Origin: a virus
IMG/VR virus record: IMGVR_UViG_3300049491_000357
Coordinates: 22,839 to 86,838 of that record
Length of the DNA: 64,000 nucleotides
Direction: 5' to 3' (one strand)
Part shown: positions 1,033 through 63,955 of the stretch, piece after piece
Layout of the letters: every line of letters begins with the position of its first letter
Position numbering within the stretch: the first letter of the stretch is position 1
Position numbers and translations under genes: made by a program
The notes under the pieces: generated by a model
Told to the model about the DNA's origin: nothing
What the model saw: only the letters and a program-made list of their open reading frames with translations
The model's database searches: none

Positions 1033-1677
1033 TAAGAAGGAAAGCCGCCAGACGATCGTGAGCGTCGAAGTTGCAGGCTTGTTGATGACAGGAAACGTCA
1101 AGTAGTTGACCAACGTCTCTTTGGTGGTGAGGTCTACGGTAGGGTTGTACGGACCGTTTGGAGGAGAAACGGGGTTCTTGATCGACAGGTTCGTAGAGAC
1201 GTTACCCCCGATGATCCCCATCTCAACCAAAGGTCCAACCGCCTCGGCTTCCGTGAACGTTGTTTGGAAGTCGACGACATTGGTCGGGATGGCTACCGGA
1301 AGCCCACCCCCGTCGATGAACTGAGTATTCGAGAAGGTTTTTCGAGTGATCTCAGCGTACAGGGCTCGTTGGGTGTTCGTTGGAGCCGGAGGAGCCATGG
1401 GGTTCCACCCGGTATCTCCTGTACCCACAGCCAAGCAAAAACACCCGTGAGGGGGTTCCTGCGAGTCCTTCATCAGACGTGCGATCAGGATCGAAGCATC
1501 CTTGACGACAAGATTCCGCTTCTCCCACTCATGTTGAAGCTCACCTGTAGCCCCGTCATGCATCTTGATGAAAACGTCTCCCCGAATGTAGAATCGGGCG
1601 TTTTCATCGTACTTTGGAGATAGGACTACCCCCAAGTTACCTTCAGTGGTTGGAGAAAAAGCCTCGACATTTTTCAT
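1033..1677 (-). CDS. Tail-collar/fibre-attachment domain protein (ends at TTA)
   Basis: Start MKNVEAF at 1677; motif AVGTG..PAPTNTQRAL..E..RK..VVDF.TTF...EA.G.L.E.G; ends IVWRLSF then TTA 1033-1035 (standard-code stop 1018). Confidence 0.7.
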
Positions 1678-8563: not shown

Positions 8564-9094
8564 TAACGTGATGGTCGAAGTGTACGTCACAGACAAGGTG
8601 TCGTTCGTGTTGAGCGTCCTTGTTGCAAACTGGACCTCATGAGCCATGACCCCGCCGACATTCGCATCGAAAACAGCGGACTTCTGTACGCCTTGTGGGG
8701 GGATACCGAGGTACGTGAACATGTAGGCGATCGTCGTCTGATTCGCAGGGACGATAGGCAGCGTCACCGTAGCCAGGGCTCGGGTCAACCCGCTACCCGC
8801 CAGCTCTGCGGGCAAACTCGTGTCTGTCGCCAGAGGAGCCGCAGCATCGTTCGACAGACCGATGTAGTTGAACCCACCTCCAAGTGAACCACGGGTCGGA
8901 ACCGAAGCTGCCGTGGCATAAATGTAGGCGTGGATTCGAACGAGTCCCGCATTGGTGACGAGGTTGTCAACCACCTGATCTTCATCCACCTGACGGTACA
9001 CGTACAGCCCACGCTTCTCGTCGAAGTCGTATGCCTGCTCATGGTGGATTCGAACACGGGCCCTTGGACGAAGCGTTTCAGTGACGATATGCAT
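8564..9094 (-). CDS. Small tail-fibre/collar-domain structural protein (ends at TTA)
   Basis: AGGAGGAGG SD before ATG 9094; NLVTNAG...YIGLS...ATDTSL..EL...GLTRA; TTA at 8564-8566 removes overlap with next gene (start 8549). Confidence 0.7.
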
Positions 9095-17862: not shown

Positions 17863-18114
17863 TAAGGACCCATACGTGAGCTTGTCCAGTTTCCGACGGA
17901 GAAGGTCAAGCTCTGCATTCGAGACCTCGATCGTGCCCCGAACCACTTCCTTCAGTTTCGTGTGGATGCCAAATTCGTTCTTGAACTGCCATTGAGCCCG
18001 TGGGGGGTCGGCATTTTCTTCCGAGCCCGATCCCTCCTCCGTTACGGGAGGGATCTTTTCGGTGTCTGGAGACTCGTCCTCCAATGTGGGATCTTCTGGG
18101 CCACTCATCGTCAC
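17863..18114 (-). CDS. Small acidic/coiled-coil hypothetical protein (ends at TTA)
   Basis: Ends KLDKLTYGS then TTA 17863-17865, 5 nt before ATG 17857; start 18114 (GTG) or 18108 (ATG). Confidence 0.6.
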
Positions 18115-30744: not shown

Positions 30745-32937
30745 TCATTTCCCAGGAGGGGCTTTGGGCCCAGAGGTTTTCGGCTTACCTAGAGTGGTGG
30801 AGATGAACTCGCCCTTCTCAGGTTGCTTGGATAGCCCAAAACTGGACTCCGTTTCTGCGGCGGCAAAAGGCGAAAATGGGGTCCCAGTCAGGTCTGTTTT
30901 CTCCAAGAGTTTCTGCCTGTACGCCAATTCCACATCAGAGAGCGGCCGAGAAGGAGTACCTGAAGCGCTAAGCGTCGCGGAGTCCGTTGGGATAGTATTT
31001 TGACCACGTTGGAAATTCGTCGCGAAGAGCGAAGAGGCCCCGTAGTTTTCTTTGGGGTCAGGGATTCGGTCTAGTTCGAACTTGGCTCGCACGGTGAAGG
31101 AGTAGTCATACTCCAACGAGAACGGTTTGTCGTCGGTCTCGTTGACATTTAGCGAGTCAAACGAACCGATGTACAACACGTTGTCGTAGTAGATGTACAC
31201 GGAGCCTACAAGGGCCAAATTGTTGGCTGTAGGGTCCTTACGGGCAAAGTCCTCCAACCAGATCGTTCCGTTGTTACGGTAGATCAAATAGAGGGAGAGG
31301 AAGTTTTGGTAGGAGGCAGAGAAGTTTCTCGCCATCCGGGTTAGCCCTGGGGACGTCCCAGAGGCCCCATTGGGAGACCCCCCGATGTCTAGGGAGAAGA
31401 ATCCGGCCAACTTACCAGATGCCGTCAACTTTGCCTGAGCCTCTCCCCAGTGCTCAACAAGGGGGCCAGGACCATTTCGACCGTAGCTACCGTCAGCTAT
31501 GATCTTCTCTTCCGATACTTTGAAGCTGGTTGGATTGACCAACATTCGTAGTGGGGGTGTACGACGCATCTGCTCAATGGCAATCTGAAGGGCCAAGATG
31601 TAGTCCTTCTGAGCACCCTGAAGCTGTTGCCCTAGCTCAGATAGGTTAAGGTCTCGGTCTGCTGCCTTATCGGCGTCCTTAGCTGCCTTGCTGGCCGCAT
31701 CTGACCCTTTCCCCGCCCATGACGTCGGAGAACCATTCGGGTCGACAGGTGGGGCCTGCACGCTCAAAGAACAGGCATCATTGTAGTACGAGTACTTGGT
31801 GAATCTGTTGGTGGAAGCGGTGTACGCCGCCTGATTTGTTTTTGGTGTGATACCCTGTTCAGTTATAAAGGCAGGGGGACTAGCCTTTCCAGAAAGGGCT
31901 GCCTTCGTCCACCCTACCCGATTTCGGTAGTCCACAGAGTACTCACGAAATGCACACGAATCTGGGGCATTGGTCGGAAGGCCACTAACATCCCACGAAG
32001 GGCCGCCCGCCTTCTTGACCCCCGCCGACGCCTCCTTCAACAGGGCTGGGAAAAGACCCTCCTTCGGGGACTTACTGGTTCCATGATAGTAGATCTCAAC
32101 GGACTCCCCGTAGTACCCGCCTTGGGCCAAAGACGTCATGTAACCCATGACGTCTCCCGACTGTGCCGCCGCCCTTGTGTTTGGGTTCCCGTATACGTGC
32201 CGGATCATTGCAACCGCCCCGGTGGCGGTACTTTCGTAGGTGTTGAAGTATGATCCGTTCTTATTCAAGAACGTACCAGGTTTGGCTTTAGGGTAGTTCC
32301 CAATGAATCCAGGGTTATTGTTTGGCCACGCCCCACTGGTCTCACGCATCGACTGTGCTGTGATGAAGAGCATTTCAGTGGGGGAAGGCTCGTGTCCAAA
32401 TACCTTCACGTAAGCATCATGGAAAATGTGATACATCTCACCAGGCGAGTGTTTGGTGATCACGGGCGGCCCCATGTCCTCACCCGTAGCTCCAGGTTGG
32501 ATTGGGATACCCGTTGTATTAGCCCCCCCAGAGGGCTGGATCTGGTACCCCGGTACGGTAACAATGTACCCCGCAGAGGCGGAGGATGCTGCGGATACCC
32601 CACTATTTTGAGGAAGCGGTTCTGAGACATCTACGTTCTGAGCAAGGCCGTTCCTGTTGGCAACGGTAGCTGAACGGTCCAGTAGTCTCCCCGTAACATT
32701 GGCCGAAGGCGGCAAAAGACCAATGATGAATAGCTTAGTATCCCGTGAGCTTCGACGGGGTACGTCAGTCAGGGGGATGAACTGGCTCGCCAGAGAGTCA
32801 GACTCTGCATTCCAGTTCGCACGCTGGAATGTCAGCAGGTCGTATAGTTCCGGAGGAAAGAAATCAGCAAGCCCCTCGATCTGTTCGTAGGTTCGAGCGG
32901 AAGGGGGTGCTGGGGAGGGGGCTGTGTTGTCAGCCAC
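30745..32937 (-). CDS. Tube-initiator/baseplate protein with lysozyme-fold (GH73-like) domain
   Basis: AQSMRETSG..NNNPG...FNTYES...GGYYG; C-terminal PPLRMLVNPTSF..HWGE domain paralogous to 32930-33724. Confidence 0.6.
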   Translation of the reverse strand: MADNTAPSPAPPSARTYEQIEGLADFFPPELYDLLTFQRANWNAESDSLASQFIPLTDVPRRSSRDTKLFIIGLLPPSANVTGRLLDRSATVANRNGLAQNVDVSEPLPQNSGVSAASSASAGYIVTVPGYQIQPSGGANTTGIPIQPGATGEDMGPPVITKHSPGEMYHIFHDAYVKVFGHEPSPTEMLFITAQSMRETSGAWPNNNPGFIGNYPKAKPGTFLNKNGSYFNTYESTATGAVAMIRHVYGNPNTRAAAQSGDVMGYMTSLAQGGYYGESVEIYYHGTSKSPKEGLFPALLKEASAGVKKAGGPSWDVSGLPTNAPDSCAFREYSVDYRNRVGWTKAALSGKASPPAFITEQGITPKTNQAAYTASTNRFTKYSYYNDACSLSVQAPPVDPNGSPTSWAGKGSDAASKAAKDADKAADRDLNLSELGQQLQGAQKDYILALQIAIEQMRRTPPLRMLVNPTSFKVSEEKIIADGSYGRNGPGPLVEHWGEAQAKLTASGKLAGFFSLDIGGSPNGASGTSPGLTRMARNFSASYQNFLSLYLIYRNNGTIWLEDFARKDPTANNLALVGSVYIYYDNVLYIGSFDSLNVNETDDKPFSLEYDYSFTVRAKFELDRIPDPKENYGASSLFATNFQRGQNTIPTDSATLSASGTPSRPLSDVELAYRQKLLEKTDLTGTPFSPFAAAETESSFGLSKQPEKGEFISTTLGKPKTSGPKAPPGK

Positions 32938-33724
32938 TTCTCGTTCCTCCCGTTGAAGCGTTGGCTACGCCGATAGTTGGACCCGCCGCCCCAGATCCAG
33001 TAGCGGACACAGGTACAGCTCCGTTGGGGTTTGTCCTGAGTGCGTTTTGCGTTTGAAACTGTGGGACTTGGATACCAGTAGGCACAAAGCTCCGACGGAC
33101 CCCCTGCACATTCGCCTGATCCCTGGGGACTACCTGTCCAGGGATCTTCACCAACGTCTGTTTGACCTTGAAGCTCCAAGACAACTTGAAAGCGAACGGG
33201 CTCTCTTCCGTCTCCTCGTAGTCGAACGAACGGAAGTACCCAAGGAACGTTCCCCGATCGTACATCAGCATCACATTGCCCTGGAGGACGATATTCCCGA
33301 ACGGGTCGTATACGCTACCGTTATTGTGGAACACGTCATAGAGATCACGGAACCGATCCCAGGCAATCGTTCGTTGGCGCAACACAGAGGTCACCCCTGT
33401 GTAGATGTTCATAAACGCCCCTGTGGACCCATCCGCCGAGATCTCAGATAGGTCGTCGGGCCAATGCTGTTCGACGAAGCCACCACGCGTCTGAAATCGC
33501 TCAATCTTCTTGGTGTGAGTCTCTGAAAGAGACGAGGGGTTGACATGCATCACAAGAGCATGCGGAAGAAGAGCTTTGGTGCCGTCGAATGGACTGGTGA
33601 TCTGGAACGCCATCGGGATGGGGCCCCGACGAGCCTCAGCCCCATGCTGGTACCTTGGAGGACCAGGAGCATCCAACCGAGGACTGTTGGGGTTAGGCGA
33701 ACGGATAATAGGAGTTCCAGCCAT
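32930..33724 (-). CDS. Tail tube initiator/baseplate protein
   Basis: LVMHVNPSSL...TRGGFVEQHW...GYFRSF...ESPF; directly downstream of tape measure. Confidence 0.7.
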   Translation of the reverse strand: MAGTPIIRSPNPNSPRLDAPGPPRYQHGAEARRGPIPMAFQITSPFDGTKALLPHALVMHVNPSSLSETHTKKIERFQTRGGFVEQHWPDDLSEISADGSTGAFMNIYTGVTSVLRQRTIAWDRFRDLYDVFHNNGSVYDPFGNIVLQGNVMLMYDRGTFLGYFRSFDYEETEESPFAFKLSWSFKVKQTLVKIPGQVVPRDQANVQGVRRSFVPTGIQVPQFQTQNALRTNPNGAVPVSATGSGAAGPTIGVANASTGGTRSG

Positions 33725-33729
33725 GGGTC

Positions 33730-36700
33730 TAATCTGTTCTTCATGGCAGCCATGTGCTCAACCACGACATTTTGAGCTGTGGCTTCGACGAACTGCTTAA
33801 GATCCCCCTTCAAGGACAACTCCACTCGCACCTGACCACCTCCGCCCCCTCCTCCTCCGGCGGGAACGATACGTTCCCCCTTGCCAATGGACGTAAGACC
33901 CTCCCCTGGGGCAGGACTGATCTTAGCCAAACCTCCAGCCACAGACGATACCATACCTCCAGCTGCGTTGGCTTTAATGCCATACTCATCCTCATGTTTG
34001 CCCGCATACTCCCCAGCAAACTTCATAGCAGACTTGGGATCACTGACCCCACCTTCAGCGAAGTCATCCTTCCACCCCTTCACCTTGTCTGAGAAGGCGA
34101 GCATGGCGAATTCAAAGAGAGCCACTCGAAGAGAGTTGAGGGTTGATTCCTCAATCATCTTCGCCATTTGATTCTCCATGAAGGACTTGTTCAGTTTGAT
34201 GCCCTTGTTCTTGAGGACGTTCTCAATCTCACCCAAAGTCCCCAGGGTTGCCTCCTGTGCTTCCACCCCAGTTTCCATGACTCCAGTCTGAGTTTCAGGA
34301 GCAGCGGTGCCTCCAAATGTGGCTTTGATGGCATCTTCGACATGAGTGTCGTGGGTGTATGCTGTAGAGTTTGTGGTTAGCGCCTTCCCAGCCTCTTCTG
34401 TGTTGGGGAGTGCCTTTGCAACACCATCTCCAACAGCGGCTGACTGTTCCTCTTTGGTGAGAGCAGAGGGGCCGCCCACTTTTGCTGTATCCCCCAATAG
34501 CTTAACAAGGTCTGTGGGCATCATTCCACCAAGAGCGGACTCACGCGCTTTGGCTCGATCACCCCCAAAGTCAGAATCAATGTCTCCCTCCCCATAACGA
34601 TCTTCAAGAGTCTTCTGAACCAATGCTTGTTTCTGATCTAGGGCGTCAGCTTCTTTCCTCAACGCATCGCTTTTGGCTTTAGCTCTAGCTGCTTCAGGCC
34701 CAGTAGCCCCATATGCCTCTCGATCAACATCCTCAGCCTCAGCTCGTTTGGATGCCCCAGCTTCCCCCTTCGCCATCTTAGATAGCTTCTCAACCTCCTT
34801 GAAAGCATCCGTTTGCTTCAGCGCTTTATTTTGATCCCGCCAATCCTTGTTATCTTTAACGGCAGCAAGGATTGCAGGATCTTTTGTCTTTTGAGCCTCC
34901 ATTTTTGTCTTAGAGGAAGAACTGGCCCCAGGCAATCCGGTAAGAGTTTCCCAGATACCAATGATCGCTTCGTAGAAGGTGTGCATCATCCAGTCGATGA
35001 ACACCTGAAGTTGCTCCATGATACTCTGGACCCGAGTGCCCATTCGCTTGTTAGCTTCCTCCTGGGCATCTTTCCCGTCGGCTGTATCTTTTGTGGCTTG
35101 GTCCATGGTGTCGTAGATCTTGGTCCAAGAAGCATCCTTCGCTTCTTGTGCCGACATCTTCCCCCGTTTGACCAACTCCTCTCGTTGCTCCGCAATCTGC
35201 TCTGCCATATTTTGGTATAGCTGACGCGTTTCATCATCTAGTCCAGCCAAGGAGTCACCGGCTATACTACCCAAATGTCCCTCATCGCTACCAAAACGTG
35301 TAGTTTCGGCATACTTGTGTTCAGCCGCAGCCACCACGCTAACTTTGGAGAGTGCTCTGGCATTTCCTACCAAACCCCCCTTAGCCATTCTCTTCTCGGC
35401 GTTCAGGCTGGAGACGGCCTCCTTCAGGGTGCCTACCTTTGACTTATCCCCTGACTCAGCGACCTTTTTGATCATATCTCGAACAGCGTCTTTACCCGCC
35501 GGGCCAGCTTCAAGAGCCTTCTTGACATCCTGGACAGTGCCCCCACCAGCATCTGCAATAGCCTTCGCGATGGAGCTGTTTTTTGATGCAATGTCCTCCG
35601 CAACAAGTTTGGCAGTCTTGGCAGGCCCTGCGAGTAGGGAGGACTTGACCTTGTCTTGGAAGCTAGCTCCCTTGTATGCATTCATAGCGGACTGCATGAA
35701 TTTCTGAGCATTTCGTGGGCTCATCACCTTACCAAGCTTACCCAAAAGCTTGACCGCATCTTCAAGACGAGTGTTGTATAGACTAAGGTCAGCGGACACT
35801 CCTCGGATCATGGCGTAAAACTTATTGCTGGCGATCCCAGAATCTTCAGCACTTCTCGTAATCATGCGAAACGAATCAACCGTCTGACCGAGACTTTGCC
35901 CCAGCTCAGTCATCATCTCAGCCTGGAAGCCCGTAACCTCCTGCAAAGAGATACCCATCGAGCGGGAGTATGCCACCGCTGCTTGAGTCACTGAGCCAAA
36001 ATCCTTAGAAAACGCAGCGGACTTCTGGTTTAGTTGCCCAAACTGCTGCTCCAACGCCGTAAGCTGCACACCTTCCGCCTGAAGACTAGAAAGCACTTCT
36101 TTATGAGTGTCCGCAGAGATCCCCCAATCCAAGTTATTGGACGCATTGTAAGCTGACTCACGGATGTTTCTCAGTGAGTCATCCATCTTACTCAAGCCTT
36201 CCTCAACATTACCCATCGATCCCGAAAACCACTGAGCTGTTCCAGCAGAAGCCAAGATGTCCTTGTTGAACTCTTTGACCATGGCCTCGGCGTCAACGAA
36301 CATCTTCACGAGCCCGAAGATCGAACCCCCCAAAGTGCCCAGAAGTGGCCCGAGTTTGGATACGGTTGAAATGACCGGCCCCATCTTGCCTGCGATTGCC
36401 CCAAGCCCCTTAAGGGCTGCCCCCATCGCTGCTTCAGGTCCCCCACCCTTTGCTTGAAGTGCAGCACCCTTGGCGGACAACGACCCACCAACCTTGCTCA
36501 GCTTCCCACCAAGGTGTCCCCCGGCTGCCTTGAGGCCCCTGCCAGCAAGCTTAGCAAAGCTCTTCCCCGCCCCTTCAACATCCTTGTGCAACAAGGCTGA
36601 AAGCGGTTCAGCCAGCTCCTTACCAGCCTCAAGAGCGGCCTTCGTGAGTTCATTGCCACTGAACTCGAACTTCAGGTCATTGACCTTGTCGGAGAGGTCT

Positions 36701-37146
36701 TCAGCCTTTCTTTGGATAGACTCGAAACTCTTTTGAGCTGCTTCAGTTCGCTTTTTATACGCCTCGACAGCCTTCTTCGACTCATCCAACGCAACTTGAT
36801 GGGTTGCCTTCTCTGCCTCAGACAGCTTCTCAAAGTCTCTCGTCTGTTGGCGAAGGAGCTTCGACTTCTCCTTGAACAGACTCTCCTCTTGCTTGTATGC
36901 TTTTCGAGAAACAAGGAGCTGTGCGTTGTACAGCTTCAGAGACTTCTCGGCCTTCTTGACAAGTTTAGGAACCTTGTTGAAGCCGTCAGACATCTTGGAC
37001 AAGAAGCCGCCAATAGCCCCCTGGCCCTCTTTTTGTGCCCTCTTGGCACTCTTTTCCATGTCGTGAAACGACTTCTCATACGACCGACGAAACTTGTCGG
37101 CCTTCATCTCTACGCTTAGAGATAGCGTAATGTCTTCGGTAGCCAT
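33730..37146 (-). CDS. Tail tape measure protein (ends at TTA)
   Basis: Long Ala/Lys/Gly-rich helical protein after tube and chaperones; ends MAAMKNR then TTA 33730-33732, 5 nt before ATG 33724. Confidence 0.85.
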
Positions 37147-38429
37147 CACTGTCTCCAGGGCTTGCCCGGCGTTTTAACCGGAGGCAGGGGAATTGCGGTC
37201 TCAGGATCCTTGTCAGAGGTTCCCACAGTTGTCGACACACCAGGGGCAATACCCCAACGATCCATAAAGCGTTCCATCTTTTCGCTTTCCTCTGGCGTTG
37301 GCTGTACAAAACCCTGAGATACTCGTTGTGCTTCGATTTGCTTTTGGCGAGCAATTCTCTCTTGCACCTGTGCCCTGGTAAGCCCAATCGTATCAGACCC
37401 CCCATAGATAGTCTGACCACGGAATGACTCCTCAGAGGCTTTCGCTGCTGCAACAAGTTGTTCGCGTTGTGCCGCAACACGGTCTTTGATCCGCTGCTCA
37501 TGAGCATCAACAACTTCATCGTGCCAGTCTTTTTCGCCCTTCAGGGACTTGGCCACCTGATCTGCAAGCTGCTCTGTTGTTTGAGCGAGAAGAACTACCT
37601 GCCCATCACGAAGAGTTGGCCCTTCGTCCAAAGAGATACCCTCATAGACATGCCGAAGAAGGCGATCTTTTCTAGCAATCTTGTCCTGCATCTCTTTGCG
37701 GTGGCGATCATGATCTCGGTTGTAGATCTTCTGAATGCCCTTGCCTGCCATACACGACCCAACAAATTTCGCGTTTTCCCACTCCCGCTCTGCGGCAGCC
37801 GACGTGTCTTCAAAGTAGTTGATGGCTCGCCATGTAAGCTGAGCCCAGTTCAACCCCAGGTCAGCCGTCCCCGCTATACCAGTCACCGCCGCCAATGAGA
37901 GGTCCAACCCGTGAAGCTGAGCCCACCTGTAGCGAGAATAGTTTTCCATCGCATACGCCTCAACAAGCACCGTAGCGTTTGAGGCTCGACGGTTTAGTTC
38001 CGACAAATGACGGATGACCTTGGCCCTGGCTGTGGGCTGCATGTCACGAAACATGTTGGCGATTTTCGGCATCCACCTTTGCCGGTCCACGAGTACATTC
38101 TGACCATCCACCATGAATACACCAAACGCCAAAAAGAGGTCCCAAAACCTAGAGGTCACCCTACCTTCGTTGGCGAATCCGCCCATCAGGCGAGTCAATT
38201 CAAACTCGTGCTGATTGAGGCTCTTGAACACAAAGAGGACGTCGTTGATTTCCGCGGTACTCGTCAAGAATCCGCGAAAGAGCACTGATGTAACATCCTT
38301 GTATACCTCAGGATTAACTTCTGGGGCCTGAGGGATGACCGTGCGAAGGTCGTCAGGGTCATCCTCTCCCTCCGACTTGCGGCGGAGTTTTTCTTGTTCT
38401 TCTCCGTATTGCTCCGCAGTCTGAGTCAT
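37146..38429 (-). CDS. Putative tail assembly chaperone
   Basis: 427 aa between tube and tape measure; TGATG overlap with tape measure start. Confidence 0.6.
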   Translation of the reverse strand: MTQTAEQYGEEQEKLRRKSEGEDDPDDLRTVIPQAPEVNPEVYKDVTSVLFRGFLTSTAEINDVLFVFKSLNQHEFELTRLMGGFANEGRVTSRFWDLFLAFGVFMVDGQNVLVDRQRWMPKIANMFRDMQPTARAKVIRHLSELNRRASNATVLVEAYAMENYSRYRWAQLHGLDLSLAAVTGIAGTADLGLNWAQLTWRAINYFEDTSAAAEREWENAKFVGSCMAGKGIQKIYNRDHDRHRKEMQDKIARKDRLLRHVYEGISLDEGPTLRDGQVVLLAQTTEQLADQVAKSLKGEKDWHDEVVDAHEQRIKDRVAAQREQLVAAAKASEESFRGQTIYGGSDTIGLTRAQVQERIARQKQIEAQRVSQGFVQPTPEESEKMERFMDRWGIAPGVSTTVGTSDKDPETAIPLPPVKTPGKPWRQ

Positions 38430-42608: not shown

Positions 42609-43220
42609 CTATCTCCGGAATCGCTGGTACTCTTTTTCGGCCCAGGCAAGCTGCTTTGGGGAAAGCAGTCCTTTGTAGCGAACCAACCGTTGTAGCATGT
42701 CCGCGAAGATGCTTGCATTTGGAGACCTCGACTGGGAAAGCGCCTCCAGCATCTCGATCTGCCGCTCCTGCTCAGATTTTGCCTGCTCAGGATTGTTCTC
42801 GATGTACTTCTTCTGCTCCTCACGAACGGTAGTCATCTGCTCCGACTTCTGCCGTTCTTCCTTCGAGTCCTCAAAGATCTCGATGGCGTCCTCGATTCGT
42901 GAGCGGAGGTTGTCCCTCCAATTCATCGTGCGGTGGACACGCTGCATCTTGCCCGCGATTGGACGATCGGTCTTCAGGTTGATGAGGGTCACACGAATCG
43001 AGTCTTCCCCCTCACCACGAGCGTTGGCCCCATCAAAGATCGAAGTCTGGACCTTGATGACGTTGTTCGGCTCATCGTCGTCAGGCGTCAGGATATAGAC
43101 CCACTCACCCCAGCGGCTCTTCTCTTTCCGAGGACTGAGGGCACGGAAGCCACGACGAATGGCCTTGTCCATGTCCTCCATGGTGATTTGGGTAAACGTT
43201 GCTGCCGCTGTAACGATCAC
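42609..43220 (-). CDS. Hypothetical protein
   Basis: Likely GTG start overlapping helicase stop (GTGA); ARGEGEDSIRV...RVHRTMNWRDNL; tandem TAG TAG stop. Confidence 0.65.
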   Translation of the reverse strand: MIVTAAATFTQITMEDMDKAIRRGFRALSPRKEKSRWGEWVYILTPDDDEPNNVIKVQTSIFDGANARGEGEDSIRVTLINLKTDRPIAGKMQRVHRTMNWRDNLRSRIEDAIEIFEDSKEERQKSEQMTTVREEQKKYIENNPEQAKSEQERQIEMLEALSQSRSPNASIFADMLQRLVRYKGLLSPKQLAWAEKEYQRFRR

Positions 43221-46495: not shown

Positions 46496-46511
46496 CCTGA
46501 TTACCTCAATC

Positions 46512-46754
46512 CTATAGGAGAAAAGCAAAAAAGCTACTTGCTAGGAGCCAATACCCCTTCATCAATGAGTCTCCCCAGCAAGCTTTTGTGAGTGCTTCTC
46601 GTCGATTTGCCTCACAAGCCTCGGAACGAATTCGAGTCCCTGGGAATTGGCCACGATACGACTCGGCCGTGACTCCATGCACCGCCTTGAGATGGCGGGC
46701 CAGAGTCACGGCCGAGTGTTCGCACAGAAGACATAGAACGTGGTCTTCGGGCAT
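46512..46754 (-). CDS. Small MucR/C2H2-like zinc-finger protein, possibly truncated
   Basis: CLLC...LARHLKAVHGVTAESYRGQFP. Confidence 0.6.
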   Translation of the reverse strand: MPEDHVLCLLCEHSAVTLARHLKAVHGVTAESYRGQFPGTRIRSEACEANRREALTKACWGDSLMKGYWLLASSFFAFLL

Positions 46755-46816
46755 CTAAGTCCGAAGCTAGCCTTGGACTATGTCTGTCAGTCCTTTATTC
46801 TTATTTCTGCCTGCCC

Positions 46817-49800
46817 TAAGATTCTTGCCCTGAGGTTGAAAGTCAGAATGATGTACAAAAGTGGGAAGATTGGCTGGTAGTACGCCTCAAACCTCATGAC
46901 CGTGGGGTCATCAGGGTCGATCGAGGATGTGATACCCGTGAAGGCCCCAACGATCTCCGCCTGAAGCAGTCCCTTGAAGAGGGTCGTCATCGTGACGTTA
47001 ACCTCGTTCGTTCGGCTAGCCAAGAACTTCGTCCCAATGAAGGCATCAAGGACAATACGGCTCTGCTGCTGGACGAAGTCAGCGATCTGCGTGACTGTTG
47101 GAAGTCGCGTCAGAACGTTGCTCATGTTGGTGGTGAGACCCTGTCGAACCCGGATGATGGGGTCAAGGTCCTCAAGCAGGGTGATACCTGCCACCGCCGT
47201 CTGGTTTGCCTCAACAGGGTCGAGGATGCGTGGGATCCGAGTGAATCCAACGATGTTACGCCGCGTGTATGGGGTTGCCACGTCCACGGCTGGCGAGACC
47301 ACAGCTCCTGACATCGCCGCAGCGAAGAAGGTGCCGTCGACAAGCTGTTCGAAGTTCTGACCCAATTCGTCAGTCAAAGTGATGACCGCCGAATCCGGGT
47401 AGAACGCTACCATACGATTCGAGTTGAGAGCCCGTGCGATAGCCTGAGCACTCAAAGGGGTCGTCCCAGAGGCGAACCCAATGAAGCCCATACGTTCTGC
47501 TTGAGCCCGAATCGTGCTCTGGGTCTCGACGTGCTGTGTGAGGTACGAGTACACCGCAGTCGAGGTTGCCAGAGGCACCAAGAGGTCAGGCTTGATGTTG
47601 CCCGGCAGCGGAGTGGCCAGCCCATCGATTGCCGCGATGAAGCTCTGGTCACTCGCTTGGTTCGTGTTCGGAACCTTGAGGACCTGCTTCACCCCAACGA
47701 GAAGGGCTCCGTTGAGGATCGCAAGGTACGCACCCAACGTTGCACGGTTTTCGCCGGAGGCTTTCCCAAAGGTCGCTTCGATCGTCTTGAGCTGACGGTA
47801 GAGGCGGGTCGAAAAGTCCTGCTTCAAGTACAGGTAACTGATGAAGTAGAAGTCACCGACCTTGGGTTCAACCCCACCTGGGTTGAACGTCTGGAGTGAA
47901 GCGGTGTCATTCACCGCAACCCCAACCGTGTTGTACACGAGGGTCTCCAAACCTGGAACCGCGTAGAACGGTCGGCTTGGATCCACCATGAAGGTCGGCG
48001 AGACCGTCATGGTGAACGAGCCACCATTCGTGTAGAGACCCGTTGAGGCAGGGAGCACCGTAAACCGGAGGCCCGTGACTGCATCGGTGTACGTCTGCCC
48101 AGGGATACCCGTTCCCGCCGAACCCGAGGGGTTGTTCGACGAGACAGTGTAGATCTGCTGAGCATCTTCCCCGTTATCACCATCCGTACCAGGAGTGATC
48201 TTCGTTCCCGTGGTCACGTTGAAGGCAGAGTTTGCTGCATTCAAGAAGGCAACCGAGGAGGTCGTGAGACCTACTGTGATCGACTCAAACGTGATGTAGG
48301 TCGCGCCATCGAGGGTGGTTGCGTACGCAAACCCATCCACTTGGAAGCCAACCGTGTCCATCAGGACATCAACGACTTCTTGGGGGTTCACGAGAGTCTG
48401 CGACGCAGAGTCATTTTGGTTGAAACCAAGGGTGGCATTTGCGTTGCCATCCAAGATAACCAAACTGCTGGTTGCATCATTGACCGTCGAGAGGAGACGG
48501 AGGTGGTCGAGATTCAGCAGAGTACCTGCTGATGCAACACCCGGGGTCACCGCGTTGACGGCAGCAGCCACAGCCGCTGTGGTTACAGCCACACCAGCAG
48601 GCAATGTGGCTGCGTAGTCTGTCCCGTTCACCCTGTACTTGAAGGTGTCGTTGAGGCCCGTCGTGATGTTGAACGGACCAGCGATTGACCCAAGCAGGGT
48701 GGCGGCCTTGTTGATTGCACCCGTGGTTCCTGCTGAGCCCTGGAAGGCTGTGAAGCCCAAGACCTGCTCAACATTACCCGACTCAATGCGGACAGTTGAA
48801 ACCACATCCAGACCACCAGGGAGAGCCCCAGGGGTCGTCGTGCTCTTGATGATGAACACGATGTCGCCCGTGAGGGGGCCAATCTGGAGGTACGAGGCAA
48901 CAACCGAACCAACCGCAACGTTGATGTCGCTGACGATTTGGGCCGGTGTGCGGTTACCCGCAGTCAGGGCAACCGGATAGACTGTCCCATCAACACTGAC
49001 ATTCAACGTACTCAGAGCGGGGATCGTGATCTTCCCCGTGTCGATACCCGTCTGGATCGGCACAACGTGCCCACCAATCAGGTAGGCGGGAGCCGCCGTC
49101 GCGAGGTTGGTTGTGTAGGTGACCCCGTTGAGCTGCGTTGTCCAGGTTGCCGAGGTTGGGCTGAAGAACGAGTAGGGACCCTGACCCTTGATGGTGTAAG
49201 CTGCGTTTTTCGCAACATCCATCGAGAAGAGGACCGTAACTGTCTCAGAAACCGGGGTCCCAGCACCCGTGTGGAATGCGTCGGGGATCTGCTCAACACC
49301 ACGAGGCCACTGCACAATCTGAGGCAGACCCGTCTTCGACCCAAATCGGGTCTGAAGGAGGTTCGCGTTTTGCGTCGTGGAGAAGACCGTGTACTGTCCA
49401 GCCCCCACAGGTCCAGGCACCGTGCAGGTGAGGAGGTAGGTGTCGTCAACGATCCGGTTGTAGTAGAACGTTGCAAACGCGAACCAATCGGGCGGGACGG
49501 GGTCCTTGAGGGTGACAAGACGATTCACACCGTCAACCGAGATCACCGTTGCAGCTGGTCGATTCAGTGCGTCTCGGAGGTTGCGGCCAACACGAACCAC
49601 CACCAGATCAGGGCGATTCGTAACAACGTCCTGCTTGCCGTTGGTGATCGAGTTGTAGAGCGGTAGCCCCAACGTCGTATCACGCCCGTTACCCGTCGTA
49701 GGCACTTCGGGCAAGTAGAACTGCGTGGTCGAAACGACAGCAGGGATCGTCGTGTTATTGACGAACCGATCACACTCCCCAAGGTACAGTTTGTCATCGC

Positions 49801-53860: not shown

Positions 53861-53888
53861 TTTTGATCTCCATCTAATGTAGTGATTT

Positions 53889-55488: not shown

Positions 55489-55977
55489 TCATTTCCCTGT
55501 AAGTGTTTTTGCAATCTCCCGACGTAGCAGATCAGGAAGTGTCTTCTTAGCCCATGCCTTAGTCTCTCGTCGAGCCAATTCCACAAAATTAGATGGCTTC
55601 CTACCGGGATGGATCCACTTACCATCAGCCATCGACTTTGCAGTAGCCGATCGGAAGATCAACTTCCCCGACTCCGTGATGATAGGGATAGGAGCCTTGG
55701 CTCGTTTGAGCCAGAGCATTTGCCGGGACTTTTGCCCCTCAACCATGGGACGCCACGCAGGGTGCAAAACCGTCAGCAAGATAGACGATTTCTTGACCTC
55801 AATCTTCATCGCCTTCGAAAAGGCCCTCTTGGCATCATTTGAGAACCCTGTCTGAGAGAGTTGAATTCGAAGACGCCTAAGAAATTGTCGTTCAACCTTC
55901 TTCAGAACGGTTGCGACATCCCCCTTCAGTTCTCCTGTGAGGGGCTTCTTGTATATCGCTTTGACGCCAGACTTCAT
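55489..55977 (-). CDS. Basic neck/tail-completion protein (HK97 gp10-like)
   Basis: 162 aa; KWIHPGRKPSNFVE; neck-gene context. Confidence 0.55.
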   Translation of the reverse strand: MKSGVKAIYKKPLTGELKGDVATVLKKVERQFLRRLRIQLSQTGFSNDAKRAFSKAMKIEVKKSSILLTVLHPAWRPMVEGQKSRQMLWLKRAKAPIPIITESGKLIFRSATAKSMADGKWIHPGRKPSNFVELARRETKAWAKKTLPDLLRREIAKTLTGK

Positions 55978-57326
55978 AAGTAAGTCGTATTTTCCCAGGT
56001 GATCGTACGACCTCTCAACTCACGCTCGTCTGGGATATTGGGCTTCTCCGTGATTGGCGTCGGCCCATTATTGGGGAACTCAGGAAGGATTCTCCCAGCC
56101 GCCACCCGAAGAGGATCCCCCATGGGGACCTTCAATCGCACGTCCTGTTCATCGATGTGCCCGATATTGAAGTGCTGTTGAAGGACCATGCCTCGTGAGG
56201 ATGGGAATCTAACAGCACCCACAGAGTATCGTTCACCGTTGAGCTTCACCAAGAAGTCGCGTTGAGACAAGATGGGGGTTGGTCCCGTCCACACCTCGTA
56301 GGTATGTTCGACGGTTCGTCCCTTGTCTTTCTGCGCAATCCTACGCTCAGCATCATCAGGGGCGATGATGGCATCGTAGGGGCCCTCATACCCCCCAACG
56401 ATTGCAGTGCCGAAACAGATGAGGCAGTCGTTTTGAGGCTGCTTGTGGTACGAGTCCCCCACGCACGGACAGTCAATACCCACGTTTTTACGCAAGAAAA
56501 AGCGTACTCGCTCTCCCCCCTGCTCCAGGATCCAACGGTTCCGACGAACGGCTTCCCGCCACTGCCAATCAAGCTTCTCGACCTCAAAGCTTGACACTGC
56601 CACAGCCCGCTCAAGTGGAGTCTCCACCAAATCCGCAGCAGTGCAGCTACAGGGATCACACCCAGCAGGCAAACCCACCGTGGTGACTCGGTAGAAGACC
56701 CTCTGCATGAGGTCTGTCTTGAGGAGAGACTTCATCCTCCGGTAAGAGCAAGTGACTTTGAAACCAGGTTCAGGGGTCACCGCAGGATCAAGGTTTTGAA
56801 GCGTGACGTTGTTGTAATGCGTCACATCAATCTCGACTTCCCCCGAGAAGCCATCAACCGACTTGATGCGGGCTAGTTGATCTCCAACAAATACCTGCAC
56901 ATCGGAAGGTTCATCCGCGTAGGTACCTTGAGACCCAGACTTGACGATGGGCCCATTGCGAACTTGGAAAACGAAGCGGGGCCAGTAGTTCTGGACAGAG
57001 TTCACCCCCTCAATACGAAATTGATCCGTGACATCCTCAGTCACGAACTCAATGTCTGTCCGATCTTTCCAGTATGTCGTCTGGACAAGGAAGTCAGTCA
57101 GACGGGTAAACGGCCCGTACTCCGAGTCAAAGCTCCGATAGATGTTGACACCCAGGACACGAAACCGGCTATTCAAAGCCAGGATGCTGGGTTCATCCCA
57201 TTGGAGATCAAACGACCCTGGTTGCCACCCACTCGTCAAGAACAAGTTGAGGGGGGCAACAGGCAGAGCTACCCTCGTCAGCTCTAGATCCGAGGGTACC
57301 CTGTCTCGGTTTGAGGCGTAAGACAT
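55977..57326 (-). CDS. Neck/head-closure protein with FN3-like N-terminus and zinc finger (ends at TTA)
   Basis: GGERVRFFLRK...CPC...CLICFGT..GGY.GP; ends WENTTY then TTA overlapping next ATG (TTATG). Confidence 0.7.
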
Positions 57327-61080: not shown

Positions 61081-62472
61081 TAATGGTTGGTCCACAACAA
61101 AGCTTTGCACAGGTACTCCAAACACCTCTTCGGACGGGACACCAGGAGGGCTTATGACGGAGGACGTCAAGACAAACTCCTGTACAGGTGTTCCCATTGC
61201 TTCTGCCGTTGGGATGTACGGAGGGTTCAAGTACAGGACAAATGTAACGAACCCAAATCCTTCCTCACTTGGGATACCTGTGGGGAAGATATCATGCGAA
61301 ACGATGATGTTGAACGTGATCGACGGAGCCGCTGCAAGGGTCAACCTTGCATTCAAGTCAGCCTGAGCCGACGAATTCAGTTGCGCACTGGACGAAAGAG
61401 ATGTCGTCGGATTAAACGTCGTACTCGGACTGAAACTCAAGCTTGACTGAGCTGGGTACGTTACGGTACCCGCCGCATTTAGCTGAGTTGCTCCAACCCA
61501 CGAAGCTCCCGAGTTGAAGGTGGAAGACAGGTCAATTGATAGCCCCACAGATGCAGTGAACCCAGCACTTTGACCAAATGTCGTAGACCCTAGAGCGTCG
61601 ACCACATTGGAGCCCACATGGCTCGAAGTTGCTGTGAGGTTGGTAGCCCCCACAGCATCCAAGACACTAGACACCGAAAGCCCTGTGTTCGTTGCGGCAC
61701 TGAGGGACCCTACAAATGCCGCCTCACAGGTACTCGTGTGCCCGGCCGAAGCCCCCACGCTAAAGGAGGCTGGAATGTCCATTACCGCGTAGGTGGACCA
61801 CCCAGCTACTGCCGCAAAGGCATTTTGAACACTATAGTCTGTTGAAACACTTTCTGTCTGAGAAGCTGTGCTTTGGGTAGTGATGTCCCCCACAGCATCC
61901 AAGTTGCCTGTTTCTGAGACATCCGCTGTCTGAGACAGTGCAAGATCTGGGTACCCGTCAATCGATCCTGAACTCGTGATCTGAGGGAACGTTCCAAAAG
62001 TAAGCGTTGAGCTGTACGTATCTGGGACATTGTACAGCCGAACGTCTGCAACATTCGGGTCCGGGGGGACTCGAAGCCAGACGTCGAATCGTGTGGAGTA
62101 TCGATCCGACACGAAAATCACAGACGTGAGCGTTAGCTTAGGGGCCGCCGAAACGACAATCGCATTGACCAGGCCGATTGTCGGAGTAAGGGCGAGGACT
62201 GGGGACGAAACAGCAGTGATCCCAGGTGCAACTGGGGGGACTCCAATCAGGACGTCATTAGGCCCAATCGTTGGGCTGGTGACGAACGTTGTAGTGCGGG
62301 GAGCCAGTGTTGGGGTAGCTGGGACCCCAATGAAGTTCGTGATGGTCGCAGCAACGACCACAGAAATGATGGGGGAGAGAATAGACGTGACCCCAGTTTC
62401 GACGCTAGGGGCTCTCACCCTAACGTCCGCCGGTTCAATCTCTCCGCTGAAGAGTCGGACATCAGCCGACAT
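61081..62472 (-). CDS. Ser/Thr/Ala-rich fibre/decoration protein (ends at TTA)
   Basis: Ends VVDQP then TTA 61081-61083, then GAGATCATTT and ATG 61070. Confidence 0.7.
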
Positions 62473-62944: not shown

Positions 62945-62974
62945 CAGCTAAGTCCCATCTGAGGAAACTGCCTG

Positions 62975-63535
62975 TAAATTGAGCGATTCCACCATGTATT
63001 GGTGCACAGTGAGCGAGCCCGTGGCCACCGTCTGCGTAAAGAACAGGTCGAGGGTGTTCGCCGCCGTGGAGTCGAAGCCTGTACCGACGGCAGGAGCCGC
63101 GTTCCAAGGTAGGATGGCCGACACGACACCCTTTGGTGCAGTCGCAGGCACACCAAGGATGTCTTCACAGGTCCAAGTGCCCTGCCCAAAAAGCGTAGCC
63201 GCAACACCAGAACCAATCGAACGACAGGTCAGCAGGAGGTCCAACTTCCAACCAACGTTGGTATGGGCTGCCACCGTATCAAGCAGGATTGCCTGAGAGT
63301 CAAAGGCAACAACAGCACCCACACGGACGTCGAATCGGGCAGTTCCAGGGGTCGTGATAACGCTGCTGATACGACCAGAAGCCGTGATGCGAAGCATGCG
63401 GCCTACATAGAAGTAGTTGTTGGGGAGCGTGATCTTCGCTGCCGTTGGGATCGCGGTTGCTGCTGCCGCTGCCGTGAGGGTAGGGCCGTCAGTTGTCGAG
63501 TTGACGAGAGTTTCCTGCCAGGTCTGAAGGGACAT
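62975..63535 (-). CDS. Beta-rich structural protein (ends at TTA)
   Basis: Own GGAG SD and ATG 63535 (MSLQTWQE); ends HQYMVESLN then TTA 62975-62977. Confidence 0.7.
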
Positions 63536-63547
63536 TTGAATTCTCCG

Positions 63548-63955
63548 TAAGGGGATCGAGATCACGAGGGAAGGACAGCTTGCTGTTACACCAGCAGCGA
63601 AAGCCGTGGTACCAACGGTTGCATCACAACCTTGGTCGATGGTGCCTACTGTACCATCATGTACAGGAGTCTCATCAGATTTCAAGAGGCGATACCACCT
63701 AACGTCAACGGTGTTGAGGATGACTGCGGAACTGATTGCATTGGCCGTCTTTGTGCCGCTGATTGCCGCCGCAAAAGCCACAGGACTCAGATTCAACCGA
63801 ACAGCTTTGGTCTGGTCCGTCACCACCACGTCAGGACTCGCGGGCTGACCGGATCCACCACCATAGAAGTCCATGAAGCCTCCACCCAGGACGTCGAGGG
63901 CTGCATCAAGGGCTGCATTCTTAGCAACAGCAGAGTAAGTCGGATTTCGAGCCAT
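63548..63955 (-). CDS. Small structural protein (ends at TTA)
   Basis: MARNPTYS..AKNAALD; ends SLVISIP then TTA 63548-63550; the standard code fuses it to the next gene. Confidence 0.7.

What the first reader, a model, noticed from the sequence alone, without database searches (positions are those of the whole stretch)
33550..33732. Tape measure: TTA stop removes a 175-nt overlap
Seen: ...AAG AAC AGA TTA GACCC ATG. In the standard code the tape measure runs about 60 codons further, out of frame over the tube-initiator gene, giving an atypical hydrophobic tail. With TTA as stop the gap is 5 nt, like neighbouring junctions. Established: the tape-measure C-terminus docks in the baseplate, so such an extension is unlikely to be tolerated.
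Basis: partly seen in the sequence, partly recalled or inferred. Interest (0 to 1): 0.7.

Follow-up and report, generated by a model that had tools for sequence, protein, structure and literature searches.

The report
Phage uses TTA as stop codon
In this fragment of a giant phage genome the leucine codon TTA behaves as a fourth stop codon, ending the tape measure gene and about a fifth of all genes, which would be the first such code change seen outside mitochondria.

Summary
On the minus strand the 1199-codon tape-measure ORF (33550..37149) reads ...AAG AAC AGA TTA GAC CC ATG, and by table 11 it overlaps the next gene (32930..33724) by 175 nt.

In-frame TTA is as rare as TAA or TAG (13 in frame, against 178 and 87 in the other two frames). 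Every in-frame TTA lies either in the last codons of an ORF or upstream of a likely start.

- In 119 of 123 related loci the tape-measure homologue ends with TGA, TAA or TAG from 15 nt before to 1 nt into the downstream start. None carries the extension.
- The other 4 loci (3 phages) have TTA at that position.
- The downstream gene's N-terminus is conserved, so the overlap region codes in that frame.
- Two relatives (322 kb and 205 kb contigs) show the same genome-wide pattern.
- In 25 homologous pairs a TTA end aligns within 3 residues of a standard stop.
- Phage tRNA arrays of the TTA-stop phages lack tRNA-Leu(UAA). Three of four standard-code relatives carry it.

The host and the release mechanism are unknown. 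Six literature searches found no report of this in a phage or bacterium.

The parts
33730..33732 (-). TTA codon that ends the tape-measure reading frame (proposed stop)
   Evidence: Homologues have TGA, TAA or TAG at this position.
33733..37149 (-). Tape-measure-like gene. It runs 1139 codons from GTG 37149. By comparison with L069 the start is more likely ATG 37146, which overlaps the upstream TGA as TGATG.
   Evidence: There is no Pfam, PHROG or NCBIfam match. Identity rests on position, size and a C-terminal motif conserved in 60 loci.
33725..33729 (-). 5-nt spacer (GACCC) between TTA and the next start
32930..33724 (-). Tail-tube-fold / tube-initiator-like gene, 264 aa, starting at ATG 33724
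   Evidence: In 67 of 80 related loci the match begins at query residue 8 or earlier. The N-terminal motif M-x-x-I-x-S-x-N-P-D...Y-x-H-G...IPMAFQI is conserved. Its fold matches baseplate tube-initiator chains.
33550..33729 (-). Stretch that table 11 adds to the tape measure (59 codons plus TGA). It is not coding in that frame.
   Evidence: No homologue has it. Homology-aligned codons of the ORF stop before index 1147.
63548..63550 (-). TTA separating two genes that lie in the same frame. It is followed by CGGAGAATTCAA ATG (GGAG, then ATG at 63535).
62975..62977 (-). TTA 10 codons before the standard stop (TAG) of the ORF ending at 62948
61081..61083 (-). TTA ending the gene that starts at 62472. 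The next ATG (61070) is 10 nt downstream. Table 11 gives a 26-nt overlap.
55977..55979 (-). TTA directly followed by TGA. The orthologue in G001 has TTA at the same aligned position.
46817..46819 (-). TTA ending the 1424-codon gene that starts at 51052. The G001 orthologue ends with TAA at the aligned residue (unaligned tails 0 and 0).
17863..17865 (-). TTA in a small ORF, 5 nt before ATG 17857 of the 779-aa gene (candidate; the small ORF has no homologue)
8564..8566 (-). TTA 14 nt before GTG 8549 of the 1875-aa gene, with GAGG between them. Table 11 gives a 16-nt overlap.
1033..1035 (-). TTA 6 codons before TGA. The G001 orthologue ends with TGA at the aligned residue (tails 0 and 0).

Best explanation
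In this phage TTA does not encode leucine. Translation ends there, so TTA works as a fourth stop codon beside TGA, TAA and TAG.

The tape-measure protein therefore ends at Arg-1139 (...EHMAAMKNR). Five nucleotides later the tube-initiator-like gene starts. The 175-nt overlap is an artefact of reading the DNA with table 11.

Shown:
- The codon statistics.
- The junction anatomy.
- The coincidence of TTA with homologues' standard stops.
- The same pattern in related jumbo phages.

Inferred:
- No tRNA-Leu(UAA) is available to the ribosome during infection. The phage-borne tRNA arrays of TTA-stop relatives lack exactly this isoacceptor.
- A release activity frees the peptide at UUA. This could be a host or phage release factor with relaxed reading of the second base, or a rescue or drop-off route.

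Which of these acts is not known. Whether the host shares the code is also not known.
For: 1. Frame specificity. In 37 window ORFs TTA occurs 13 times in frame among 20,333 codons, against 178 and 87 in the other two frames. That matches the profile of TAA (5/79/191) and TAG (3/159/92). CTA occurs 152 times and TTG 411 times in frame.

2. Position.
- All in-frame TTAs of the 86.8-kb contig lie in one of two places: 1-61 codons before the standard stop (12 genes), or between the previous gene's stop and a Shine-Dalgarno-like motif plus start.
- In 6 of the 12 genes the next start follows TTA by 2-14 nt.

3. Control over all 61 sense codons. TTA is the sole outlier, at 0.25 per 1000 in ORF bodies against 8.33 in the last 30 codons. 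The next most enriched is ATA, at 6.8-fold.

4. Tape-measure homologues.
- 59 of 60 loci end with a standard stop at the residue aligned with R1139.
- In 123 loci the first of the four codons lies from 15 nt before to 1 nt into the downstream start: TGA 88, TAA 29, TAG 2, TTA 4.

5. The downstream start is real. In 67 of 80 loci the match begins at residue 8 or earlier, and the N-terminal motif is conserved.

6. Replication in relatives.
- G001 (322,633 bp): body 0.52 against tail 11.73 per 1000.
- Contig C1 of G002 (205,069 bp): 0.61 against 10.67.
- L026 has TTATG junctions at the tape-measure end and at one more gene.

7. Orthologue ends.
- Alignments reach within 3 residues of both ends for 7 of 10 (G000), 16 of 29 (G001) and 23 of 36 (C1) TTA-ended ORFs that have a strong homologue.
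- The partner's stop is TGA 14, TAA 7, TAG 4 or TTA 21 (examples).
- The junction upstream of the tape measure is TGATG here and TTATG in L069.

8. No TTA lies inside homology-aligned parts of real G000 genes. The only 2 exceptions sit at the last aligned position, where the orthologue also has TTA.

9. The distance from TTA to the next standard stop has a median of 10, 15 and 16 codons in the three genomes. That is roughly the distance I would expect between stops in non-coding sequence (my own estimate, about 14 codons; no call computed it).

10. tRNA arrays.
- G001 has 39 tRNAs with Leu caa, cag, gag and tag but not taa.
- G007 has 32 tRNAs and no taa.
- Standard-code relatives G008, G010 and G012 carry Leu-taa.

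11. The TTA at 33730-33732 is identical in contigs from a second study.
Against: - No peptide, ribosome-profiling or other expression data exist. The case is comparative only.
- No release-factor (RF-1, PCRF) or peptidyl-tRNA-hydrolase domain was found in G000, G001 or G007. Nothing of the kind appeared among the 263 G001 ORFs scanned, out of 299 called. No agent that reads UUA is identified. These records are 18%, 68% and 48% complete.
- Cellular contigs of the metagenome bin that holds phage contig C1 use TTA as an ordinary sense codon (2.29 per 1000 in bodies against 2.02 in tails). If that cell is the host, the phage would have to impose the change itself, and no mechanism for that is known.
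- One standard-code relative (G009) also showed no tRNA-Leu(taa) in the parts fetched. One small contig of the same bin (C98) does carry it. The tRNA correlation rests on few genomes.
- In the 64.6% G+C record G007 the enrichment is weaker (0.68 against 3.35 per 1000) and blurred by spurious ORFs.
- For 3 of 10, 13 of 29 and 13 of 36 TTA-ended ORFs the best alignment did not reach within 3 residues of both ends.
Confidence: 0.85

Rival explanations
1. TTA is leucine as usual. The tape measure really carries a 60-residue C-terminal extension encoded out of frame over the start of the next gene.
For: The frame is open by table 11. Overlapping genes do occur in phages.
Against: None of the 119 loci whose homologue ends with a standard stop has the extension. 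The tail reads like out-of-frame sequence and itself contains a second TTA. This reading also leaves the genome-wide confinement of TTA to ORF ends unexplained. It would require parallel stop losses in about 20-30% of the genes of three phages.
Confidence: 0.03
2. A local accident: a TAA-to-TTA stop-loss mutation or a sequencing or assembly error at this one site.
For: L001, among the closest relatives found, has TAA at the aligned position, one substitution away.
Against: The letters are identical in contigs from a second study. Eleven other genes of the same contig end the same way. L069, L131 and L026 have TTA at the same junction.
Confidence: 0.01
3. TTA is not recognised by a release factor. 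It is an unassigned 'hungry' codon: the ribosome stalls for lack of tRNA-Leu(UAA). The chain is then freed by a non-canonical route, such as peptidyl-tRNA drop-off, a +1 slip into an overlapping TAG or TAA, or ribosome rescue. The practical outcome is the same (the protein ends at TTA), but the mechanism differs.
For: - The tRNA arrays of the TTA-stop phages lack Leu-taa.
- The close relatives L128 and L001 have no in-frame TTA on the coding strand at all, which looks like an unassigned state.
- G follows TTA in 51 of 117 cases, making TTAG.
- Such routes are discussed for UUA in Streptomyces, where a uORF UUA commonly lies 5 nt before the adpA start (PMC10732093; abstract and introduction read).
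- A tmRNA gene lies on contig C4 of the same bin.
Against: - C or T follows TTA in 63 of 117 cases, so a slip into TAG or TAA cannot be general.
- tmRNA tagging would mark a fifth of the proteome for degradation.
- tmRNA genes also occur in the standard-code relatives G009 and G010.
- No peptidyl-tRNA hydrolase was found.
- Stalling at 20-30% of genes would be costly.
Confidence: 0.25
4. Conditional reading. TTA is read as Leu by host tRNA early in infection. It becomes a terminator only after the host tRNA pool is replaced by the phage's own set, so the tails are made early or at a low level.
For: The phage family carries 32-47 tRNA genes and RNA-repair genes. Cellular contigs binned with one of these phages read TTA as sense.
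Against: TTA ends occur in genes of all classes along the contigs, not in one block. There are no data on timing. The link between bin and host is weak.
Confidence: 0.1

Closest known systems
NCBI translation table 23 (Thraustochytrium aureum mitochondrial code), as recalled; no call tested it
   Same: TTA is a termination codon in addition to TAA, TAG and TGA.
   Different: That code belongs to a protist mitochondrial genome with its own small translation system. Here it is a roughly 0.4-0.5 Mb tailed phage that depends on a bacterial ribosome. There is no evolutionary link between the two.
Stop-codon recoding in phages (TAG to Gln, TGA to Trp; Lak and crAss-like phages; bioRxiv 10.1101/2021.08.26.457843 and PMC9523058, seen as search listings and abstracts only)
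   Same: A phage genome that cannot be read correctly with table 11, and possibly a code that differs from the host's. The phages carry large tRNA sets.
   Different: The direction is opposite. Those phages turn a stop into a sense codon by means of suppressor tRNAs. Here a sense codon becomes a stop, which needs loss of a tRNA and gain of a release activity. TGA, TAA and TAG remain stops here.
Unassigned codons (AGA and AUA in Micrococcus luteus, recalled; CGG in Mycoplasma capricolum, cited in PMC8629427, passage read)
   Same: A sense codon without a decoding tRNA that has vanished from gene bodies. The relatives L128 and L001 look like this state.
   Different: Unassigned codons are simply absent. 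Here TTA is frequent, but only at gene ends: 10 of 51 ORFs of 150 aa or more in G000 and 65 of 216 in G001.
Rare UUA codon and bldA tRNA of Streptomyces (PMC10732093; abstract and introduction read)
   Same: UUA is a codon whose tRNA may be missing, with ribosome pausing. In a uORF an in-frame UUA commonly lies 5 nt before the adpA start, the same spacing as TTA to ATG here.
   Different: There UUA is still leucine and serves regulation in a few genes. Here it replaces the stop codon of about a fifth of all genes and never occurs at conserved leucine positions.
Near-cognate binding of release factor to UUA (human eRF1; bioRxiv 10.1101/2024.09.01.610654, passages read)
   Same: It shows that a class I release factor can engage UUA, one base away from UAA.
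   Different: The factor is eukaryotic, and binding does not trigger hydrolysis. It makes the idea plausible and nothing more.

Membership tests
Genetic code with TTA as a termination codon | TTA is absent from homology-supported coding positions | tested here: met
   no TTA lies in aligned parts of real G000 genes, except 2 at the last aligned residue where the orthologue also has TTA; 0.25 per 1000 in ORF bodies.
Genetic code with TTA as a termination codon | TTA lies where homologues have a standard stop | tested here: met
   for the tape measure; 25 pairs of TTA against TGA, TAA or TAG, with ends within 3 residues.
Genetic code with TTA as a termination codon | Sequence after TTA is not under coding constraint in that frame | tested here: met
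   the distance to the next standard stop has medians of 10, 15 and 16 codons; the tail is absent from homologues.
Genetic code with TTA as a termination codon | No tRNA that reads UUA is available | tested here: inconclusive
   - The G000 fragment has no tRNA genes.
- The G001 and G007 arrays lack Leu-taa, while G008, G010 and G012 have it.
- The host is unknown.
- Cellular contigs of one bin use TTA as a sense codon.
Genetic code with TTA as a termination codon | A release factor or other agent that acts at UUA | not testable with these tools
   No RF-1, PCRF or Pth domain was found in the phage records, and none among the 263 G001 ORFs scanned. The records are incomplete.
Genetic code with TTA as a termination codon | Protein C-termini observed at TTA | not testable with these tools
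   This needs proteomics.
Phage stop-codon recoding (TAG or TGA read as an amino acid) | Genes are interrupted by in-frame TAG or TGA when read with table 11 | tested here: not met
   ORFs of up to 2145 codons are intact by table 11. TAG, TGA and TAA sit at tidy junctions and at orthologue ends.
Tape measure protein | Long gene directly upstream of the tube-initiator and baseplate genes of a tail module | tested here: met
   It is 1139 codons long. The downstream gene has a tube-initiator fold. Baseplate_J and a weak hub hit lie further downstream. The gene order is kept in 123 loci.
Tape measure protein | Match to a tape-measure family model | tested here: not met
   No Pfam, PHROG or NCBIfam hit. 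The name rests on context only.
Tail tube initiator (T4 gp48/gp54-like, Afp7/Pvc7-like) | Tail-tube fold matching baseplate-bound tube-initiator chains | tested here: met
   9qgl_7A E 1.4e-6, 6j0n_b, 9euf_M, 6rao_G, 8kea_P ('baseplate-initiators') and 5iv5_BG. The model has a mean pLDDT of 70.9 and TM-scores of only 0.3-0.4, so this is fold-level evidence only.

The most novel reading that the evidence does not exclude
A previously undescribed genetic code with four stop codons (TGA, TTA, TAA, TAG) is used by several jumbo phages of about 0.4-0.5 Mb. They fall in at least two, probably three, branches of one phage family. The code may be independent of the host's. It would have arisen by loss of the phage-borne tRNA-Leu(UAA) and capture of the freed codon for termination. 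This would be the first sense-to-stop reassignment outside organelles. It would also mean that standard gene callers mis-annotate the 3' ends of 20-30% of these phages' genes.
Probability: 0.8. Interest if true: 0.92.

Novelty: new variant of a known kind. Interest (0 to 1): 0.88.

Why it matters
Known natural code changes in bacteria and phages turn stops into sense codons or swap amino acids. As far as I recall, a sense codon becoming a stop is known only from mitochondria.

If TTA terminates translation here, several things follow:
- The set of stop signals that a bacterial ribosome can use is wider than assumed.
- It gives a live example of codon capture. Relatives with no TTA at all sit next to relatives that use it as a stop.
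- It poses a concrete mechanistic question: what releases the chain at UUA?
- Gene callers and code-inference tools do not look for extra stops, so C-terminal extensions and false gene overlaps in such phages go unnoticed.
- Phage and host may differ in the reading of one codon. That would be a new kind of barrier, or weapon, in infection.

Tried and rejected
- **Downstream gene starting at V58/M59.** This start would sit next to the table-11 stop, as GTGATG at 33550-33555, and would remove the overlap without a code change. Rejected because homology starts at residue 8 or earlier in 67 of 80 loci and the N-terminal motif is conserved.
- **A +1 slip at TTA into TAG or TAA as the general rule.** Rejected because only 54 of 117 TTA ends are followed by G or A.
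- **A -1 shift fusing the tape measure to the next protein.** There is no slippery heptamer, and homologues are separate genes.
- **An apparent alignment through the tail.** tblastn alignments seemed to run through the tail in some loci. They cross the subject's stop codon and reflect DNA conservation of the downstream gene.
- **Close relatives of the tape measure.** Only 3 loci were found, the best at 42% identity. A query with the 463-aa gene 61084-62472 found none. A query with L069's protein found only itself.
- **Phage DNA collection.** No match.
- **Host.**
  - No WhiB domain in 5 records.
  - The protein was found only in G002 among 401 genomes of its order.
  - The bin label Lysinibacter sp. 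is weak, because the bin holds several phage contigs and more than 136 tRNA matches.
- **Agents of release.** No RF-1, PCRF or Pth domains were found. The two RF genes of G002 lie on cellular contigs.
- **Relatives G004, G005 and G006.** TTA is rare or absent, with no enrichment at ORF ends.
- **Sequence searches for the gene's identity.** The profile against solved structures gave only a chance-level hit at E 0.018.
- **RNA runs.** No RNA holder is listed.
- **Literature.** Six searches returned no report of TTA/UUA as a stop in a phage or bacterium. The main text of PMC8629427 has 0 mentions of UUA or TTA. The library lacks most subscription journals, and supplements were not read.
Full report
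**What is there.** The window is bases 22839-86838 of a single 86,838-bp virus record. The record has 54% G+C, no tRNA gene and all long ORFs on the minus strand. CheckV rates it 18% complete. Complete relatives measure 398 and 513 kb, so it is a piece of a jumbo phage.

At the reported place the minus strand reads AAG AAC AGA TTA GAC CC ATG:
- TTA = 33732..33730
- spacer GACCC = 33729..33725
- ATG = 33724..33722

By table 11 the 1199-codon ORF 33550..37149 overlaps the 264-codon ORF 32930..33724 by 175 nt. It adds 60 residues (LDPWLELLLSV...FFRMLL) after ...EHMAAMKNR.

**What the two genes are.** The long gene has no Pfam, PHROG or NCBIfam match. I call it a tape measure on four grounds:
- its size;
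- its Ala/Gly/Lys/Glu-rich sequence;
- a C-terminal motif conserved in 60 loci (...GEGL.S.G.GE.I.PAGGGGGG...);
- its place just upstream of baseplate genes.

The downstream protein was folded from a 25-sequence alignment (mean pLDDT 70.9). The model matches tube-fold chains bound in baseplates of contractile systems: 9qgl_7A at E 1.4e-6, 6j0n_b, 9euf_M, 6rao_G, 8kea_P 'baseplate-initiators' and T4 5iv5_BG.

**A rival that needed excluding.** The table-11 stop TGA (33552..33550) sits in GTGATG. In principle the downstream gene could start at V58 or M59, giving an ordinary 4- or 1-nt overlap and leaving the extension real.

Homology rules this out:
- 149 relatives of the downstream protein exist in the viral collection.
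- In 67 of the 80 loci kept, the match begins at query residue 8 or earlier.
- The N-terminal motif (M-P-x-I-x-S-A-N-P-D...Y-x-H-G...IPMAFQI) is conserved.

The 175-nt region therefore codes in the downstream gene's frame.

- Of 60 loci with a tape-measure C-terminal match, 59 end with TGA or TAA at the residue aligned with R1139. The closest, L001, reads ...VVVRHNAAANNR*.
- A stricter scan covered 123 loci from the viral, genome and metagenome collections. These are not de-duplicated, and several records occur twice.
- In that scan the first stop falls from 15 nt before to 1 nt into the downstream start in every locus: TGA 88, TAA 29, TAG 2, TTA 4.
- The four TTA cases are L069 and L228 (the same contig), L131 and L026. 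In these the next standard stop lies 140-442 nt inside the downstream gene.
- No homologue carries the extension.

**It is genome-wide.** In 37 window ORFs TTA occurs 13 times among 20,333 in-frame codons, against 178 and 87 in the other frames. TAA gives 5/79/191 and TAG 3/159/92. CTA (152), TTG (411) and even ATA (38) are used in frame.

Every in-frame TTA of the contig lies in one of two places:
- 1-61 codons before the standard stop (12 genes);
- between the previous gene's stop and a Shine-Dalgarno-like motif plus start.

In six of the 12 genes the next start follows TTA by 2-14 nt: window 63550, 61083, 33732, 17865 and 8566, and contig position 21207. At 63550 two genes lie in one frame, separated only by TTA, with GGAG and ATG just behind it.

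Across all 61 sense codons TTA is the only outlier. It occurs at 0.25 per 1000 in ORF bodies and 8.33 per 1000 in the last 30 codons. ATA is next at 6.8-fold.

With TTA counted as a stop, ORFs of 150 aa or more end in TGA 30, TTA 10, TAA 7 and TAG 4.

**Independent replicates.**

| Genome | Size and G+C | TTA in ORF bodies (per 1000) | TTA near ORF ends (per 1000) |
|---|---|---|---|
| G001 (record holding L069) | 322,633 bp, 56% (G+C of the L069 locus) | 0.52 | 11.73 (last 30 codons) |
| G002 contig C1 (L131) | 205,069 bp, 58% | 0.61 | 10.67 (last 30 codons) |
| G007 (record holding L026) | 231,025 bp, 64.6% | 0.68 | 3.35 (last 40 codons) |

- G001 uses CTA (1354) and ATA (497) freely in frame.
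- L026 has TTATG junctions at the tape-measure end and at one more gene. Its genome-wide signal is weaker and blurred by spurious ORFs.
- In a tree of the tube-initiator protein, L069 and L131 form one clade (99/89).
- G000 groups with L001 and L128 (100/89). L026 sits elsewhere.
- L001 and L128 have essentially no in-frame TTA on the coding strand and do not use it at gene ends.
- Many other relatives use TTA as an ordinary codon; L034, for example, has 60 in 12 kb.

The trait is therefore scattered across the family. Either it arose more than once or it follows the host.

**Orthologue ends.** ORFs were cut at four stops and compared between genomes. Among TTA-ended ORFs with a strong homologue, the best alignment reaches within 3 residues of both ends in:
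- 7 of 10 (G000)
- 16 of 29 (G001)
- 23 of 36 (C1)

The partner's stop is TGA 14, TAA 7, TAG 4 or TTA 21.

Examples:
- The 1424-codon gene ending at window 46819 (TTA) against its G001 orthologue ending in TAA (tails 0 and 0).
- The gene ending at window 1035 (TTA) against TGA (tails 0 and 0).
- Several G000 genes ending in TGA or TAA against G001 TTA (tails 0 and 0, or 1 and 1).

The junction upstream of the tape measure reads TGATG here and TTATG in L069.

Inside homology-aligned parts of real G000 genes there is no TTA. The only two exceptions sit at the last aligned residue, where the orthologue has TTA too.

The distance from TTA to the next standard stop has medians of 10, 15 and 16 codons. 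By my own rough estimate, which no call computed, non-coding sequence would give about 14.

**Not an artefact.** Contigs from two runs of a second study cover 33675-33838 without a difference.

**Mechanism: shown and inferred.** It is shown that coding ends at TTA. The cause is inferred.

tRNA evidence:
- Relatives carry 32-47 tRNA genes.
- The TTA-stop phages G001 (39 tRNAs; Leu caa, cag, gag, tag) and G007 (32) lack tRNA-Leu(taa).
- So do the arrays on G002 contigs C4 and C74.
- The standard-code relatives G008, G010 and G012 have it. G009 did not show it in the parts fetched.
- Contig C98 of the G002 bin has it.

Searches for an agent:
- I found no release-factor or peptidyl-tRNA-hydrolase domain in the phage records.
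- None appeared among 263 of the 299 G001 ORFs called. What did appear was RNA ligase, LigT, HAD_SAK_2 and TROVE.
- All these records are incomplete.

Cellular contigs binned with phage contig C1, two of which carry the bin's RF genes, read TTA as an ordinary codon (2.29 per 1000 in bodies against 2.02 in tails). If that cell is the host, the code is the phage's own. The bin is clearly mixed, so this is weak evidence.

My best guess is loss of the UUA-reading tRNA plus release by a factor that tolerates U at the second position. A stall-and-rescue route is the main alternative. A +1 slip into TAG or TAA cannot be general, since C or T follows TTA in 63 of 117 cases. A follows in only 3 of 117, which is unexplained.

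**Comparison with what is known.**
- As I recall, TTA is a stop in NCBI table 23 (a protist mitochondrion).
- The sense-to-stop papers in my search listings concern organelles (PMC6821328 and PMC12574857, listings only).
- Phage recoding described so far goes from stop to sense (listings and abstracts).
- In Streptomyces UUA is a rare, tRNA-limited codon, and a uORF UUA often lies 5 nt before the adpA start (PMC10732093; abstract and introduction read).
- Human eRF1 binds UUA without hydrolysis (bioRxiv 10.1101/2024.09.01.610654, passages read).
- Six searches found no report of TTA/UUA as a stop in a phage or bacterium.
- The main text of the Codetta screen does not mention the codon.
- The library is incomplete and I read no supplements.

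**Verdict.** The interest lies less in the tape measure than in the code. I put 0.85 on translation ending at TTA in this phage. The mechanism and the host remain open.

Noticed in passing
window 52850-53911 (-); also L116:9366-10427: An actin-like protein matches Pfam Volactin (PF25216) at E 3.7e-70 here and 6.3e-61 in the related jumbo phage G001. As I recall, the family was named for an archaeal actin. A conserved phage copy is unexpected.
   Followed up: partly
G001:C1:307805-307877 (L086 1499-1573, -); also the G010 tRNA region: A tRNA with anticodon CTA (amber-suppressor type; ARAGORN labels it Pyl) occurs in G001 and in the standard-code relative G010. Yet TAG ends orthologous genes in G001. 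Its role is unknown.
   Followed up: partly
TTA gene ends of G000, G001 and G002:C1: The base after a terminal TTA is A in only 3 of 117 cases (G 51, C 33, T 30). After TGA or TAA, A is common. TTAA is avoided at these ends, and the cause is unknown.
   Followed up: no
L166 12446-12832 (G002 contig C4); the fetched tRNA regions of G009 and G010 (L296-L301): ARAGORN calls tmRNA genes inside or next to phage tRNA arrays. The tags are ANDNVAPRLALAA, ANDNAYATPALAAA and VADLPRDSLGSG. They occur in a contig with TTA enrichment at ORF ends and in two standard-code relatives.
   Followed up: no
L117:39-4769 and L120:8962-13047 (G001), compared with window 43217-46528: The UvrD-type helicase of G001 carries an intein with a LAGLIDADG domain and is 1577 aa. 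The window's orthologue is 1103 aa and shows no intein domain. A SNF2 helicase of G001 also holds intein and LAGLIDADG domains.
   Followed up: no
tRNA arrays of G001, G002:C74, C4 and C2: tRNA-Ile with anticodon TAT, a direct reader of ATA, is present in several arrays of this phage family. ATA is the second-rarest sense codon in the window (38 in 20,333).
   Followed up: no
window 18111-24308 (-), 2922-8549 (-), 46787-51052 (-): Very large ORFs of 2065, 1875 and 1421 aa have no or only marginal family matches (PPC domain; weak DUF2460). All are conserved in G001.
   Followed up: no
window 37076-37519 (-) overlapping 37146-38429 (-): A 147-aa ORF in another frame overlaps the 3' part of the gene upstream of the tape measure. 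I did not check whether this is a chaperone-type frameshift product.
   Followed up: no
L112:70-1098, next to the G001 tRNA cluster; L120, L122, L124 and L125: G001 carries a TROVE (Ro60-like) protein, an RNA ligase, a LigT-like 2',5'-ligase and three HAD_SAK_2 RNA-repair domains. Together they make a tRNA-repair toolkit that may bear on how the phage manages the tRNA pool.
   Followed up: no
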